Positions 47,714-54,437 of a stretch of DNA of 64,000 nucleotides are shown here, in pieces. The DNA is taken from positions 3,840,001 to 3,904,000 of the forward strand of contig CP086569.2 of assembly GCA_009914755.4 (NCBI GenBank). Reading direction: 5' to 3'. The DNA comes from the human T2T-CHM13v2.0 reference genome, Homo sapiens. Position 1 is the first letter of the stretch; each line of letters opens with the position of its first letter. The notes under the pieces were generated by a model, which was given only the letters and a program-made list of their open reading frames with translations, was not told the origin of the DNA and made no database searches. The position numbers and the translations under genes are program-made.

Positions 47714-48244
47714 AAAATCAGACTCTTGATGACAAGGATGCTTATCAACATCAAGTAGAGAGTTGAAACTTGTGATGGTTAATACTGAGTGTCAACTTGA
47801 TTGGATTGAAGGATGAAAAGTATTGATCTTGGGTGGGTCTGTGAGGGTATTGCCAAAGGAAATTAACATTTGAGTCAGCAGGCCGGGAAGGCACACCAAC
47901 TCTTAATCCGGGTGGGCACCCTCTAATCAGCTGCCAGTGTGGCTAGAATATAAATCAGGCAGAAAAACGTGAAAAGACTAGACTGGCCTAGCCTCCCAAT
48001 CTACATCTTTCTCCAGTGCTGGACCCTTCCTGCCCTCAAATATCAGACTCCAAGTTATTCAGTTTTGAGACTCAGGCTGACTTTCCTTGCTCCTCAGCTT
48101 GCAGTCGGTATATTGTGGGATTGTGATTGTGATTGTGTGAGTTAATACTTAATAAACTCCCATATATGTATATATATATATATATATAGATATAAAACCT
48201 ATTAGCTCTGTCCCTCTAGAGAACCCTAACTAATTACAGATTTT

Positions 48245-48262
48245 GGTACCAGGAGTGTTTCT
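48245..48262 (+). other. Putative primer-binding site (tRNA-Leu-like) of the HERV-L provirus
   Basis: tggtaccaggagtgtttc lies immediately downstream of the 5' LTR. It resembles the TGG-initiated complement of a tRNA-Leu 3' end. Assigned from memory, not aligned. Confidence 0.35.
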
Positions 48263-48540
48263 AGAGGAACAGAATATTAAGTATGGACTTCTTTCATTGG
48301 TTTTGGGTTTCCTAGAGTTGGCTGCTTAAGATGATTAGACCCCAAAATACTAAGGACTGTATTTCTCATAGTATGGAGAACACTGATAGTCCTTGATGTG
48401 AACTGTCTAGAGAGTTATGCAAAATAAATGCATTTGGCACTCCTGATTCACTGCTCATGAGAAGCAAAGAGTTTAGTGACTCTATACGTAATATCTTTGA
48501 CCGTATGTGGAGAATCAAGGAACATAATGAAACTGGTTAA

Positions 48541-50100
48541 TTGCTCCTAAATTCAGTGTACAAAATGATGAAAGAAAATGATGAGCTCAGAGTTTCTAAC
48601 TCCTGGCTTCAGAAGCAGATACTTAGCCTCAAATCTGCTAAGATTACCCTGAGTGAGAGTCTTAACTCCTGTAGAGAAAGAGCTGAAATTGTGAAAAAAC
48701 AGACACAAGCTCTTATCATGCGAGTGGCTGACCTGCAGCAAAAGGTGCATGCAAAACCTTGCCATGTGTCTACTGTTAAATTGAGGGCATTGACTGAAAA
48801 AGAATGGGACCCTGCAACATGGAATGGGAACGTGTGGGAGGACACTGACGAAGTGGGGGACACCGAGTTTGTAAACTTTCATGAAGCTTTTTTGCCAGAA
48901 GGAACAGCTTACCCATCCGCAGTAGTGGCAACATCCACCCCCGCCCCCACCCCATCCATGCTGTCATCAGTGTTTCCAACTTTGAGGAGATAAACCCTGA
49001 ACTGCCTGAAGCAGCAGTGATGGTCTCCCCTGAGCCAGTGGCCAGACCAGATAATGTTGATTCTCCTCAGGAGCCACCCCAAACACCCCTGTTTGCTTCT
49101 AGACCTATAACTAGACTAAAGTCCCGGTAAGCCCCTAAAGGTGAGGTTCAGAGTGTTACCCATGAGGAGGTGCACTGCACACAAAAAGAATTGCTTGAGT
49201 TTTCTAATTTATATAAAGAGAAATCTGGAGAACAGGCATGGGAATAGACATTGAGGGTGTGGGATAATGGTAGAAGGAACATAGAGTTGAATCAGGCTGA
49301 ATTTCTTGATTTGGGCCCACTAAGTAGGGATTCTGCATTTAATTTTGCAGCTCAAGGAGTTGAAAAAGCTTCTAATAGTTTATTTGCTTGGTTAGCTGAA
49401 ATGTGGATTTAAAGGTAGCCCACTGTGAGCGAGCTGAAAATGCCTGATTTTCTCCCTTGGTTTAATGTAAAGGAAGGGATCCAAAGGCTTAGGGAGATTG
49501 GGATGGTGGATTAGTCACTTTAGACCTACTCATTCCAATAGGGAGGGTCCAGAAGATGTACCCTTGACCAATGCCTTGCAAAATAGATTCGTGAGGGCAG
49601 CACCTGCATCACCAAAGGGCATGTAATCATTCCTCTCTGTATGTCAGATCTAACAACAAGAAGAACAGTAACTCAACTACAAAATTTAAACACAATGGAA
49701 ATAATTGGATCACAAGGCTGCAGGGACAAAGCGGCAGCACTCAACCATCAAAGGCAAGGTGGGTGTAGCTACCATAATGGACAGCAGAGGCAAAGAAGCA
49801 ATTAGAATAGTCTTACTCATGTAGAGCTCTGGGATTGGCTAATTAATCACGGTGTTCCTAGAAGTGAAATTGATAGGAAGCCTACTGAATTCCTAGTTAA
49901 CTTATATAAGCAGAAAACATCTAGGTCAAATACACAAAAGACTGACTTGAATTATAAAAAAGATTCATGGCCCCTCAATGAATTTCCAGACTTGAGCCAG
50001 TTTACACACCCAGAACCCCCTGAATGAAGGAGAAGCCAGGTCCCCTTGAAGAAGGACCCCACTACACTACCGACAATTTATGCTGTTAATGTTTCTCCCA
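48541..50100 (+). pseudogene. HERV-L gag remnant, multiple frameshifts
   Basis: ORF 48541-48993 (150 aa, coiled-coil-like N-terminus) starts ~300 nt after the PBS. The reading frame continues in other frames through 50100 before the protease motif. Confidence 0.5.
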
Positions 50101-53100: not shown

Positions 53101-53440
53101 AACAATGATTCCATTAAACTGGAAGTTAAGATTGCCACCTGGACACTCTGGGCTCCCCCTACCTTTAAGTCAAAAGGCTAAGAAGGGAGTTACAGTGTTG
53201 GCTGGGGTAAATGACCCAGAATATCAAGGTGAAACCAGTCTACTACTCCACAAGGGAGGTAAGGAAGAGTATACATGGAATACAGGAGATCTATTAGGGC
53301 ATCTGTTGGTGTTAACATGCTCTATGGTTAAGCTCAATGGGAAACTACAACAGCCCAATCCAGGGAGAACTACTAATAGCCCAGACCCTTTAGGAATGAA
53401 GGTTTGGGTCACTCCACCAGGAAAAAAACCATGACCTGCT
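50100..53440 (+). pseudogene. HERV-L pro-pol remnant (protease, RT, RNase H, integrase, dUTPase). Frameshifted with stops.
   Basis: ORF 50340-50753 (...CIIGIDILS...; thumb/connection region). ORF 50769-51134 contains LVPYIDDIMLIGS (the RT YXDD box). An alternate frame at 52440-52760 gives WWQVDYIGPLP...DTYSGYGFAYPAHNASAKTTV..GLTACIIHHHGIPHNIASDQGMHFTSKEVQQW (integrase core). ORF 52463-53434 ends with dUTPase motifs: PPGHSGLPL, GVNDPEYQGETSLLLHKGGKEEY, GDLLGHLLVL. Confidence 0.85.
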
Positions 53441-54194
53441 GAGGTGCTTGCTGAAGGCAAAAGGAATACAGAATGGACAGTAGAAGAAGTTAGTCATCAA
53501 TACCAGTTACTGTTACATGACCAGCTGCAGAAATGGGGACTCTGATTTTCATGACTATTTTCTCTTTCTTTTGTTAAAAACATGTTTGTGAATGTATGCA
53601 CTTCTACTAAGAAAATATTTTCCTTTTTGTTTCCTTTCTCCTTTATCATGTGACATAAGATTTATTAACTTCATATCAGCATTTAAGTATTGTTAACTTT
53701 ATGTAATAGCATTTGGGTTGGGGATTGGTGCATTTCCAGTTGTATGAAGGATAAATATATTATGTTAGGCATAAATATGACCATAACGTGTATGGTTTCA
53801 AGTTGACAAGGGATGAACTTGTGATTGTTAATACTGAGTGTCAACTTGTTTGGATTGAAGGATGCAAAGTATTGATCCTGCGTGTGTTCGTGAGGGTTTT
53901 GCCAAAGGAGATTAACATTTGAGTCAGTGGGCTGGGAAAAGTACCCCCACCCTTAGTCTGGGTGGACACCTTCTAATTAGCTGCCAGGGCAGCTGGAATA
54001 TAAAGCAGGCAGAAAAATGTGAAAAGACTAGACTGGCCTAACCTCCCAGCCTACATCTTTCTCCAGTGCTGGATGCTTCCTTCTCTCAAACATTGGACCC
54101 GAAGTTCTTCAGTTTTGGGACTTGGATTGGCATTACTTGCTCCTCAGTTTGCAGATGGCCTATTGTGGGACCTTGTGATCGTATGAGTTAATAC

Positions 54195-54410
54195 TTAATA
54201 ATATCTCATATATATAGATATATATATCTTATATCTATATATATAGGATAGATCCTATATCTATATATATCGATATATATATCTTATATCTATATATTGA
54301 TATATAATATATATCGATATATATAGATATAGGATCTCTCCTATATCTATATATTATATATATTATATATCTCTATATAAGGATGTATATATATATCTTA
54401 TTAATTTTGT
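54195..54410. repeat. Expanded (TATA/GATA/TATC)n microsatellite inside the 3' LTR
   Basis: Runs of atatatagatatatatatcttatatctatatat... The orthologous stretch in the 5' LTR (48160-48195) is only ~35 bp. Confidence 0.85.
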
Positions 54411-54437
54411 CCCTCTAGAGAACCCTAATACAAAACT

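What the first reader, a model, noticed from the sequence alone, without database searches (positions are those of the whole stretch)
47763..54437. Structurally complete but coding-dead HERV-L provirus with perfect 5-bp TSD (AAACT), PBS-Leu-like site and dUTPase downstream of integrase
Two homologous ~470/613-bp LTRs (TG...CA) bracket 5.6 kb containing gag, protease, RT (YIDD), integrase (D,D-35-E core region WWQVDYIGPLP...DTYSGYGFAYP) and a C-terminal dUTPase domain. dUTPase at the 3' end of pol is the ERV-L (class III) arrangement and is the basis for the family call. The identical AAACT pentamers immediately outside both LTRs show a single integration event with no later recombination. Full-length HERV-L copies retaining both LTRs and TSDs are a minority; most loci are solo MLT2 LTRs. 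The longest ORF in the whole window (323 aa, 52463-53434) is the IN-dUTPase remnant.
Basis: partly seen in the sequence, partly recalled or inferred. Interest (0 to 1): 0.55.

Follow-up and report, generated by a model that had tools for sequence, protein, structure and literature searches.

The report
Dead full-length HERV-L provirus
This is an ordinary, long-dead copy of the known human endogenous retrovirus HERV-L, complete from end to end but unable to make any protein, one of a few hundred such relics in the human genome.

Summary
The finding is real and its interpretation is essentially correct. Window 47766-54437 holds one full-length ERV-L/HERV-L provirus. It has a 5' LTR (47771-48238, 468 bp) and a 3' LTR (53820-54432, 613 bp). 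The extra length of the 3' LTR is an expanded AT microsatellite. Both LTRs run TGT...ACA and are flanked by identical AAACT pentamers. A tRNA-Leu(TAA)-type primer binding site lies 5 nt after the 5' LTR. The internal order is gag, an in-frame stop, then PR, RT, RNase H, IN and dUTPase, with no env. Pfam places dUTPase 3' of the integrase core. The closest protein in 5.8 billion is intact MuERV-L pol (68% identity, colinear over 96% of the query), and the integrase is nearest to foamy-virus integrase among solved structures. The copy is dead, with at least 28 in-frame stops, at least 4 frameshifts and a mutated protease active site (DTG to DTD). LTR divergence is 16% (K2P 0.18), roughly 40-90 My depending on the rate assumed. 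Two corrections apply. The 323-aa ORF is the second-longest in the window, not the longest. Its first ~100 codons are out of frame relative to integrase. The MLT2A subfamily call could not be tested against Dfam. The element is already known and of low interest.

The parts
47766..47770 (+). 5' target-site duplication, AAACT
   Evidence: Read directly. Identical to 54433-54437.
47771..48238 (+). 5' LTR, 468 bp, TGT...ACA. It has TATAAA at 47949-47954, AATAAA at 48151-48156 and a short (AT)n at 48162-48194.
   Evidence: 84% identity to the 3' LTR over 387 nt; landmarks.
48244..48261 (+). Primer binding site of tRNA-Leu(TAA) type. The first 14 of 18 nt match, after a 5-nt spacer GATTT.
   Evidence: unique in the window. 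PMC6049499 gives the complementary probe sequence. MuERV-L has the same spacing and sequence.
48283..50027 (+). gag pseudogene. The ATG at 48283 is 21 nt after the PBS, as in MuERV-L. The native stop TGA is at 50025-50027. It carries at least 7 stops and at least 1 frameshift.
   Evidence: tblastn with MuERV-L gag gives 42-44% identity over residues 30-581. Pfam DUF5535 hits at 26.4 bits. The leader alignment was read.
50061..50420 (+). Protease region, in the same frame as the end of gag. The active site reads LLDTDS at 50181-50198 (DTG to DTD), with IIGID at 50367.
   Evidence: motifs. RVP at 16.2 bits, below the 20.7 cut-off, while the MuERV-L counterpart scores 24.8. MuERV-L has LLDTGSE at the homologous place.
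50619..51080 (+). Reverse transcriptase domain, with YIDD at 50961-50972
   Evidence: Pfam RVT_1, E 1.5e-9. PDB RT hits. Motif located.
51291..51584 (+). RT connection / RNase H-like domain
   Evidence: Pfam RT_RNaseH_2, E 6e-9.
51851..52213 (+). RNase H domain, in a different frame from RT
   Evidence: Pfam RNase_H, E 1.6e-6. Frame change shown.
52324..52431 (+). Integrase N-terminal zinc finger, HX4HX26CX2C (2 residues shorter than in MuERV-L)
   Evidence: Read from the translation and the alignment to MuERV-L pol.
52486..52792 (+). Integrase catalytic core with DX58DX35E spacing. It has tandem stops after GPLP and a frameshift near 52766.
   Evidence: Pfam rve, E 2.1e-13. PFV integrase is the best solved relative at 69 bits. 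Alignment.
53063..53335 (+). dUTPase domain, 3' of integrase. Motif 3 reads GVNDPEYQGE at about 53204-53233.
   Evidence: Pfam dUTPase, E 1.2e-6 and 28.7 bits against a cut-off of 22. FIV and cellular dUTPases hit in PDB.
52463..53434 (+). The 323-aa ATG ORF. Codons covering 52463-52765 are out of frame relative to IN. Codons covering 52766-53431 are true pol frame (IN C-terminal part plus dUTPase). It ends at a premature stop 37 codons before the native pol stop at 53543-53545.
53806..53819 (+). Degenerate polypurine tract region, ACAAGGGATGAACT, abutting the 3' LTR
   Evidence: Read. Homologous to CAAGTTGACAAGGGGTGGAT before the MuERV-L LTR.
53820..54432 (+). 3' LTR, 613 bp, TGT...ACA. It has TATAAA at 53999-54004, a mutated polyadenylation signal AATAAT at 54197-54202 and an expanded AT-rich microsatellite at 54208-54396.
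54433..54437 (+). 3' target-site duplication, AAACT

Best explanation
This is a single germline integration of an ERV-L (class III, spuma-like, env-less) retrovirus of the human HERV-L group, most likely with MLT2A-type LTRs.

How it arose (inferred from standard retroviral biology):
- Reverse transcription was primed by tRNA-Leu(TAA) at the PBS.
- The two LTRs were identical when the DNA copy was made.
- The integrase joined the TGT...ACA ends into an old L1 element with a 5-bp staggered cut, which produced the AAACT duplication.

What happened afterwards:
- The copy decayed neutrally. The LTRs have diverged by 16%.
- An AT microsatellite in U5 of the 3' LTR expanded by about 150 bp.
- gag and pro-pol accumulated at least 28 stop codons and at least 4 frameshifts.
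- The protease catalytic DTG became DTD.

The original coding layout is still readable. It is gag, one in-frame stop codon, then PR-RT-RNase H-IN-dUTPase as one pol frame ending at 53545. No env follows, only about 275 nt before the 3' LTR.

The element makes no functional protein today. Any residual activity would be LTR promoter or regulatory activity. That was not tested here and is not indicated by the sequence.
For: Shown by tool results:
- LTR pair and boundaries.
- TSD AAACT on both sides.
- PBS unique in the window and matching the tRNA-Leu(TAA) 3'-end complement.
- Pfam domain order RVT_1, RT_RNaseH_2, RNase_H, rve, dUTPase.
- A weak RVP hit.
- Best homologue P0001, an intact 1124-aa pol, at 68% identity over 1091 aligned positions with only small gaps.
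- P0001 lies on ~6.1-kb contigs that also carry a 581-aa gag. Both published MuERV-L qPCR primers match these contigs exactly.
- The comparator shows the same LTR end CTAATACA, a 5-nt spacer, the PBS TGGTACCAGGAGTGG, 21 nt to the gag ATG, and the same sequence before the 3' LTR.
- tblastn maps gag residues 30-581 and pol residues 1-1124 colinearly onto 48370-53542 in changing frames.
- Internal length is 5581 bp, against about 5484 bp in MuERV-L, so there are no large deletions or insertions.
- Among solved structures the integrase is closest to PFV integrase, at 69 bits against 50 bits or less for delta-, alpha- and betaretroviral integrases.
- LTR p-distance is 0.16 and K2P is 0.18.

From the literature:
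- A dUTPase C-terminal of IN is the MuERV-L/ERV-L arrangement (PMC1224870; PMC8278194).
- A 5-bp TSD, TGT/ACA ends, lack of env, Leu PBS, HX4HX28CX2C and DX58DX35E are given for ERV-L in PMC8278194.
- Class III HERV LTR divergence is 13-42% (PMC4724089).
- The LTR layout matches the published MLT2A description in PMC8559712. TATA is at position ~180, upstream of an AG-rich stretch at ~187-210. TGATCC/TGATCT is at position 54, next to a DUX4-like reverse motif at 28-38.
Against: Nothing contradicts the ERV-L call. Its limits are these:
- No Dfam/Repbase models were available, so the HERVL-int and MLT2A1/MLT2A2 subfamily assignment rests on length and on landmarks described in a paper, not on an alignment to consensus.
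- The PBS matches only 14 of 18 nt.
- The RT alone scores slightly higher against gammaretroviral RT (XMRV/MLV, 108 bits) than against foamy-virus RT (96 bits), so RT by itself does not separate class I from class III.
- The empty target site could not be reconstructed from another L1 copy in the window.
Confidence: 0.95

Rival explanations
1. It belongs to a different ERV-L subgroup of the human genome (for example an ERVL-B4/MLT2B-type element or HERVL40/66/74) rather than HERV-L proper with MLT2A LTRs.
For: No consensus library was available, so the subgroup was not tested directly. A second, much more diverged MLT2-like LTR at 44562-45080 shares only the terminal ~45 and ~27 nt with these LTRs. 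This shows that MLT2 subfamilies differ strongly and cannot be told apart by their ends alone.
Against: - The non-microsatellite LTR length of about 445 bp fits the MLT2A1 consensus of 444 bp (PMC8559712).
- TATA at ~180, the AG-rich stretch at ~187-210, TGATCC at ~54 and the adjacent DUX4-like motif match the MLT2A layout described there.
- The divergence-based age of about 42 My at 2.2e-9 per site per year fits the 45-65 My given for MLT2A.
- The presence of a dUTPase and the absence of env fit canonical HERVL.
Confidence: 0.12
2. It is a chimeric or recombinant locus: two separate ERV-L insertions, or an inter-element recombination product, that only looks like a single provirus.
For: The LTRs differ in length by 145 bp and by 16% in sequence.
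Against: - Identical 5-bp flanks on both sides, with a chance probability of about 0.001.
- The length difference is entirely an AT microsatellite.
- gag and pol are colinear with MuERV-L without duplication or a break.
- The internal length matches MuERV-L (5581 against ~5484 bp).
Confidence: 0.02
3. It is a class II (betaretrovirus-like, HERV-K type) or lentivirus-like element, since those groups also carry a dUTPase.
For: A dUTPase is present. The best single dUTPase hits in PDB are FIV dUTPases.
Against: - The dUTPase lies 3' of the integrase core. It is not N-terminal of the protease (beta) and not between RNase H and IN (non-primate lentiviruses).
- The RT scores 37 bits or less against HIV and FIV RT, against 96-108 bits for foamy and gamma RT.
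- The TSD is 5 bp, and the PBS is Leu rather than Lys.
- The closest homologue is MuERV-L at 68% identity.
Confidence: 0.01
4. Part of the dead provirus is still functional. Either the stop-free IN-C/dUTPase segment is a domesticated coding remnant, or the LTRs act as cleavage-stage (DUX4-driven) promoters.
For: - The 222 codons at 52766-53431 have no stop, while the other 884 pol codons have 21. The Poisson P is about 0.005 at that rate, and 0.01-0.09 under a neutral expectation derived from LTR divergence.
- MLT2A LTRs as a family are transcribed in 4-8-cell embryos, and 361 of about 5500 copies are active (PMC8559712).
- Both LTRs keep the TATA box.
Against: - The stop-free run was picked after the fact as the longest ORF.
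- Its identity to MuERV-L (69.5%) is no higher than in the rest of pol (65-75%).
- The ATG-initiated ORF begins with ~100 out-of-frame codons and ends at a premature stop.
- No identical or near-identical protein is in the 5.8-billion-protein collection.
- The DUX4-like motif has 1 mismatch in the 5' LTR and 2 in the 3' LTR. Such matches are not enriched in the window, with 16 found against 25.8 expected.
Confidence: 0.03

Closest known systems
HERV-L (Repbase/Dfam HERVL-int with MLT2A1/MLT2A2 LTRs; Cordonnier et al. 1995, cited from reference lists and memory)
   Same: - Primate host (Alu and L1 in the flanks).
- Full length of ~6.7 kb.
- TGT...ACA LTRs of ~450 bp core length, 5-bp TSD and Leu PBS.
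- gag-pro-pol with dUTPase after IN, and no env.
- LTR divergence within the class III range of 13-42% (PMC4724089).
- LTR landmarks as described for MLT2A (PMC8559712).
   Different: Nothing found. The only unusual points are a ~190-bp AT microsatellite in the 3' LTR and the usual inactivating mutations. Assignment to the A1 or A2 subfamily was not tested against consensus sequences.
MuERV-L / MERVL (mouse; comparator loci L001-L004)
   Same: - Same architecture at nucleotide resolution: LTR end CTAATACA, 5-nt spacer, PBS, then 21 nt to the gag ATG.
- gag and pro-pol in one frame, separated by a single stop.
- PR-RT-RNase H-IN-dUTPase order.
- Homologous sequence before the 3' LTR.
- pol 68% and gag 42-44% identical at the protein level.
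   Different: - MuERV-L has intact ORFs, while this copy has at least 28 stops and at least 4 frameshifts.
- The LTR interiors are unrelated apart from the ends and the promoter layout.
- The hosts differ.
- The integrase zinc finger here is 2 residues shorter.
Spumaretroviruses (prototype foamy virus)
   Same: - The integrase is the closest solved relative.
- The RT-RNase H is of comparable similarity.
- Class III ERVs cluster with spumaviruses (PMC4724089).
   Different: Foamy viruses have env and accessory genes, no dUTPase, a separate pol mRNA and a Lys PBS. They are exogenous.
Betaretrovirus-like HERV-K (HML) and non-primate lentiviruses, the other dUTPase-bearing retroviruses
   Same: They encode a trimeric-type dUTPase domain (Pfam PF00692).
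   Different: - The dUTPase position differs: N-terminal of the protease in the betaretroviruses, and between RNase H and IN in the lentiviruses (PMC1224870, PMC8278194).
- The TSD length and PBS differ.
- RT and IN similarity is much lower.

Membership tests
LTR retrovirus provirus (generic) | Two direct LTRs with TG...CA ends, flanked by a short target-site duplication | tested here: met
   LTRs at 47771-48238 and 53820-54432, with TGT...ACA ends and AAACT on both sides.
LTR retrovirus provirus (generic) | A PBS just 3' of the 5' LTR and a purine-rich tract just 5' of the 3' LTR | tested here: met
   The PBS at 48244-48261 matches 14 of 18 nt to the tRNA-Leu(TAA) complement. The PPT region is degenerate (ACAAGGGATGAACT) but homologous to the MuERV-L counterpart.
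ERV-L (class III) | dUTPase domain C-terminal of the integrase in pol | tested here: met
   Pfam rve at 52486-52764, then dUTPase at 53063-53335, both above the curated cut-offs. The rule is taken from PMC1224870 and PMC8278194.
ERV-L (class III) | 5-bp target-site duplication | tested here: met
   AAACT on both sides. [quoted passage not shown]
ERV-L (class III) | tRNA-Leu primer binding site | tested here: met
   14 contiguous nt identical to the complement of the tRNA-Leu(TAA) 3' end (PMC6049499). MuERV-L has 15 of 18 at the homologous site. The last 4 nt are mutated here.
ERV-L (class III) | No env gene | tested here: met
   The native pol stop is at 53543-53545 and the 3' LTR starts at 53820, leaving 274 nt with no ORF or domain. 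Env-less status of ERV-L is from PMC8278194.
ERV-L (class III) | pol closest to ERV-L / spuma-like sequences rather than to class I or II | tested here: met
   68% identity to MuERV-L pol. The next 17 hits (P0002-P0018) are vertebrate ERV pol proteins, 11 of them with a dUTPase domain. IN is closest to PFV IN. RT alone is ambiguous between gamma and spuma.
ERV-L (class III) | IN motifs HX4HX28CX2C and DX58DX35E; RT motif YIDD | tested here: met
   YIDD is present. DX58DX35E is exact. The zinc finger is HX4HX26CX2C, with a 2-residue deletion in this copy (table in PMC8278194).
HERV-L proper (HERVL-int with MLT2A1/A2 LTRs) | Best match of the LTRs to the MLT2A1/MLT2A2 consensus and of the interior to HERVL-int | not testable with these tools
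   No Dfam or Repbase models are available. Indirect support comes from the core LTR length of ~445 bp against 444 bp for MLT2A1, and from the TATA, AG-rich TSS region, TGATCC at ~54 and DUX4-like motif layout described in PMC8559712.
Functional (coding-competent) ERV | Open gag and pol reading frames and intact catalytic residues | tested here: not met
   At least 7 stops in gag and at least 21 in pol, with at least 4 frameshifts. The PR active site is DTD instead of DTG.

The most novel reading that the evidence does not exclude
The IN-C-terminal/dUTPase segment (52766-53431) has 222 codons without a stop, in a provirus that otherwise carries one stop per ~42 codons. It might have been kept open by selection, as a domesticated retroviral dUTPase-like protein. 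Alternatively, this locus's LTRs might be among the minority of MLT2A copies used as cleavage-stage promoters.
Probability: 0.03. Interest if true: 0.5.

Novelty: already known. Interest (0 to 1): 0.08.

Why it matters
It matters little in itself. HERV-L is a well-described family with about 200 proviral copies and thousands of solo MLT2A LTRs in the human genome (PMC4724089, PMC8559712). This copy has no unusual structure.

Its modest uses are these:
- It is a clean textbook example, with both LTRs, an intact TSD, a PBS and all pol domains still recognisable.
- The LTR pair gives an internal age estimate.
- It dates the surrounding L1 as older than the insertion.

If the locus were one of the embryonically active MLT2A copies it would be relevant to work on human zygotic genome activation. 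Nothing here shows that it is.

Tried and rejected
- Direct Pfam scan of DNA references failed because of stop codons. I repeated it with stops replaced by X.
- I tried to read the original HERV-L and MuERV-L papers (Cordonnier 1995, Benit 1997). They are not held. I used later open-access papers that restate their features instead.
- A literature search for 'primer binding site' + 'tRNA-Leu' + 'ERVL' found nothing. The tRNA-Leu(TAA) 3' end was obtained from a tRF probe sequence instead.
- The 18-nt PBS pattern with up to 3 mismatches missed the real site, which has 4 mismatches at its 3' end, and returned one chance hit at 50734-50751. The 14-mer is unique.
- I tried to reconstruct the empty target site by joining the flanks and looking for another L1 copy in the window that spans the junction. 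The only other L1 match (19985-20291) starts 160 nt downstream of the junction, so there is no test.
- A DUX4 motif scan (TAAYYYAATCA, up to 1 mismatch) gave 16 hits against 25.8 expected. One imperfect hit lies in the 5' LTR, which is not evidence of function.
- Pfam on the 345-codon open frame at 61655-62689 gave no hit.
- I considered and rejected a class II or lentiviral origin (domain order), a chimeric locus (TSD and colinearity), and the idea that AACT before both LTR starts shifts the LTR boundary. The MuERV-L comparator shows that the internal copy is the PPT-flanking sequence.

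
Full report
**Observation**

Reading 47500-54700 and searching for repeats shows two direct repeats about 6.05 kb apart. Pairwise alignment with flanks and direct inspection fix the boundaries.
- The 5' LTR is 47771-48238 (468 bp), running TGTGATGG...CTAATTACA.
- The 3' LTR is 53820-54432 (613 bp), running TGTGATTG...CCCTAATACA.
- The 5 nt outside each LTR are AAACT (47766-47770 and 54433-54437).

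The boundaries are set independently in three ways: by LTR-LTR homology, by the TGT...ACA rule, and by comparison with the MuERV-L LTR. With them fixed, a 5/5 match has a chance probability of about 0.001 at this base composition.

The 145-bp length difference between the LTRs is an AT-rich microsatellite. It covers 48162-48194 in the 5' LTR and 54208-54396 in the 3' LTR.

AACT also precedes the 3' LTR inside the element. The MuERV-L comparator shows that this belongs to the conserved sequence next to the polypurine tract (CAAGTTGACAAGGG...), so it does not move the LTR boundary.

**Primer binding site**

Five nt after the 5' LTR lies TGGTACCAGGAGTGTTTC (48244-48261).
- Its first 14 nt occur once in the window, with 0.01 matches expected by chance.
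- Those 14 nt are identical to the first 14 nt of TGGTACCAGGAGTGGGGT. That sequence is the probe complementary to tRF-3009a, the 3'-terminal fragment of human tRNA-Leu(TAA) (PMC6049499).
- MuERV-L has TGGTACCAGGAGTGGTTC at the same distance from its LTR.

**Coding anatomy**

The three forward frames, with stops masked, were scanned against Pfam.

| Domain | Coordinates | E-value |
|---|---|---|
| RVT_1 | 50619-51080 | 1.5e-9 |
| RT_RNaseH_2 | 51291-51584 | 6e-9 |
| RNase_H | 51851-52213 | 1.6e-6 |
| rve | 52486-52764 | 2.1e-13 |
| dUTPase | 53063-53335 | 1.2e-6 |

All five are above their curated cut-offs. They are split across three frames but are colinear.
- The protease gives only a sub-threshold RVP hit (16.2 bits against a cut-off of 20.7). 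It is homologous to the MuERV-L protease, whose LLDTGSE active site reads LLDTDSE here.
- The integrase shows HX4HX26CX2C and an exact DX58DX35E spacing. PMC8278194 lists HX4HX28CX2C and DX58DX35E for ERV-L.

**Comparator**

A frameshift-corrected 1106-aa pol was searched against the 5.8-billion-protein collection.
- The top hit, P0001, is an intact 1124-aa protein with RVT_1, RNase_H, rve and dUTPase in that order. It is 68% identical over 1091 aligned positions.
- The next 17 hits (P0002-P0018, 34-41% identity) are vertebrate ERV pol proteins from amphibians, fishes and birds. Eleven of them carry a dUTPase domain.
- No class I or class II retroviral pol ranks among them.
- P0001 lies on ~6.1-kb assembled contigs together with a 571-581-aa gag.
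- Both published MuERV-L qPCR primers (PMC4829419) match these contigs exactly, so the comparator is MuERV-L.

tblastn of MuERV-L gag and pol onto the window gives the following map.

| Query | Window coordinates | Frame |
|---|---|---|
| gag residues 30-214 | 48370-48948 | 2 |
| gag residues 199-581 | 48984-50024 | 1 |
| pol residues 1-518 | 50202-51737 | 1 |
| pol residues 515-711 | 51722-52312 | 3 |
| pol residues 706-865 | 52294-52767 | 2 |
| pol residues 866-1124 | 52766-53542 | 3 |

- In MuERV-L, gag and pro-pol share one frame and are separated by a single stop. The window keeps this arrangement, with the gag stop TGA at 50025-50027 and pol continuing in the same frame.
- The gag ATG at 48283 is 21 nt after the PBS, as in MuERV-L.
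- The internal length is 5581 bp, against about 5484 bp in MuERV-L, so the provirus is structurally complete.
- The 274 nt between the native pol stop (53543-53545) and the 3' LTR leave no room for env.

**Class assignment**

Among solved structures:
- The integrase scores highest against prototype foamy virus integrase (69 bits). Deltaretroviral integrases score 50 bits, RSV 47 and MMTV 44.
- The PR-RT-RNase H region scores 108 bits against XMRV/MLV RT and 96 against foamy-virus PR-RT. It scores 37 bits or less against HIV-2 and 28 or less against HIV-1.
- RT alone therefore does not separate gamma-like from spuma-like. IN, the domain order and the homologue ranking do.

The literature states the following:
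- The MuERV-L dUTPase is C-terminal of IN. This is a third, independent acquisition, distinct from the beta and lentiviral positions (PMC1224870; PMC8278194).
- A 5-bp TSD and TGT/ACA ends are characteristic of ERV-L and class III.
- ERV-L is env-less.

All of these features are met here.

**Decay and age**
- The homologous frames contain at least 7 stops in gag and 21 in pol, plus at least 4 frame changes.
- The LTRs differ at 62 of 387 aligned sites, with 42 transitions and 20 transversions. This gives p = 0.16 and K2P = 0.18.
- That corresponds to about 42 My at 2.2e-9 per site per year, and 74-92 My at 1.0-1.25e-9.
- The value lies inside the 13-42% reported for class III HERVs (PMC4724089). 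It is compatible with the 45-65 My given for MLT2A (PMC8559712).
- CpG observed/expected in the element is 0.12.

**LTR subgroup**

No consensus library could be searched. The indirect evidence is:
- The core LTR length is about 445 bp, and the MLT2A1 consensus is 444 bp.
- TATAAA sits at LTR position 179/180, upstream of an AG-rich stretch at ~187-210. The paper places MLT2A transcription start sites at 205-215, in an AG-rich region downstream of a TATA box.
- TGATCT/TGATCC sits at position 54, next to a reverse DUX4-like motif at 28-38.

This fits MLT2A, but it is a comparison with a description and not an alignment to a consensus.

**The ORF claim**

The 323-aa ORF at 52463-53434 exists. 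Two corrections apply.
- The window's longest ORF is on the minus strand at 61655-62689, with 345 codons stop to stop, or 333 aa from its first ATG.
- Codons covering 52463-52765 of the 323-aa ORF read the integrase core out of frame. Only 52766-53431 (222 codons) is genuine pol frame, and it ends at a premature stop 37 codons before the native stop.

That 222-codon stretch has no stops, against 21 in the remaining 884 pol codons.
- The Poisson P is about 0.005 at that rate.
- Under a neutral expectation derived from LTR divergence, P is 0.01-0.09.
- The stretch was selected after the fact as the longest ORF.
- Its identity to MuERV-L (69.5%) is not elevated compared with the rest of pol.
- No matching protein exists in the collection.

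I treat this as chance.

**Context**
- The provirus sits inside an old L1 in the same orientation. The downstream flank carries Pfam Transposase_22 and Tnp_22_dsRBD, which are L1 ORF1 domains.
- An Alu with its A-tail ends at 47717, 48 bp upstream of the TSD.
- An in-window reconstruction of the empty site was not possible.

**Verdict**

This is a correctly identified, ordinary, coding-dead full-length HERV-L provirus. The element is already known and of low interest.

Noticed in passing
window 44562-45080 (+): A second, much more diverged MLT2-like solo LTR. It runs TGTGATGGTTATT... to ...GAGAACCCTGATTAACTCA and shares only its terminal ~45 and ~27 nt with the HERV-L LTRs. A possible 5-bp TSD is CAGAT/CACAT (4 of 5 matching).
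   Followed up: partly
window 54438-56300 (+) and 47718-47765: The HERV-L is inserted into an old L1 element in the same orientation. The downstream flank has L1 ORF1 domains (Pfam Transposase_22 and Tnp_22_dsRBD) in a stop-ridden frame, followed by what looks like the ORF2 endonuclease. The L1 is therefore older than the provirus.
   Followed up: partly
window ~47400-47717 (+): An Alu element with a long A-tail ends 48 bp upstream of the provirus TSD. It is a separate, later insertion into the same L1.
   Followed up: no
window 61655-62689 (-): The longest open frame of the window, at 345 codons, or 333 aa from its first ATG. By eye it resembles the C-terminal part of L1 ORF2 (...[22 protein letters not shown]...). 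It gave no Pfam hit at E<=0.01.
   Followed up: partly
window 52766-53431 (+): The IN-C/dUTPase segment has 222 codons with no stop, while the rest of pol has 21 stops in 884 codons. Poisson P is ~0.005 at that rate and 0.01-0.09 under a neutral expectation. The segment was selected after the fact, and it shows no excess conservation against MuERV-L.
   Followed up: partly
window 54208-54396 (+), 3' LTR U5: The short (AT)n of the 5' LTR (33 bp) has expanded to a ~190-bp imperfect AT/ATATC-type microsatellite in the 3' LTR. This accounts for the whole LTR length difference. The polyadenylation signal just upstream is mutated to AATAAT in the 3' LTR only.
   Followed up: yes
loci L001-L004 (metagenome assemblies): ~6.1-kb contigs from ENA metagenome assemblies carry intact MuERV-L gag and pol, and both MuERV-L qPCR primers match them exactly. 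They are presumably mouse host DNA in the samples. L004 is assembled across the LTR in a circularly permuted form. gag and pro-pol are in one frame, separated by a single stop codon.
   Followed up: partly
window 47798-47808 and 53847-53857: A reverse-orientation DUX4-like motif sits at LTR positions 28-38. It reads TGATTGGATTG in the 5' LTR (1 mismatch to TGATTRRRTTA) and TGTTTGGATTG in the 3' LTR (2 mismatches). Motif matches at this stringency are not enriched in the window.
   Followed up: partly
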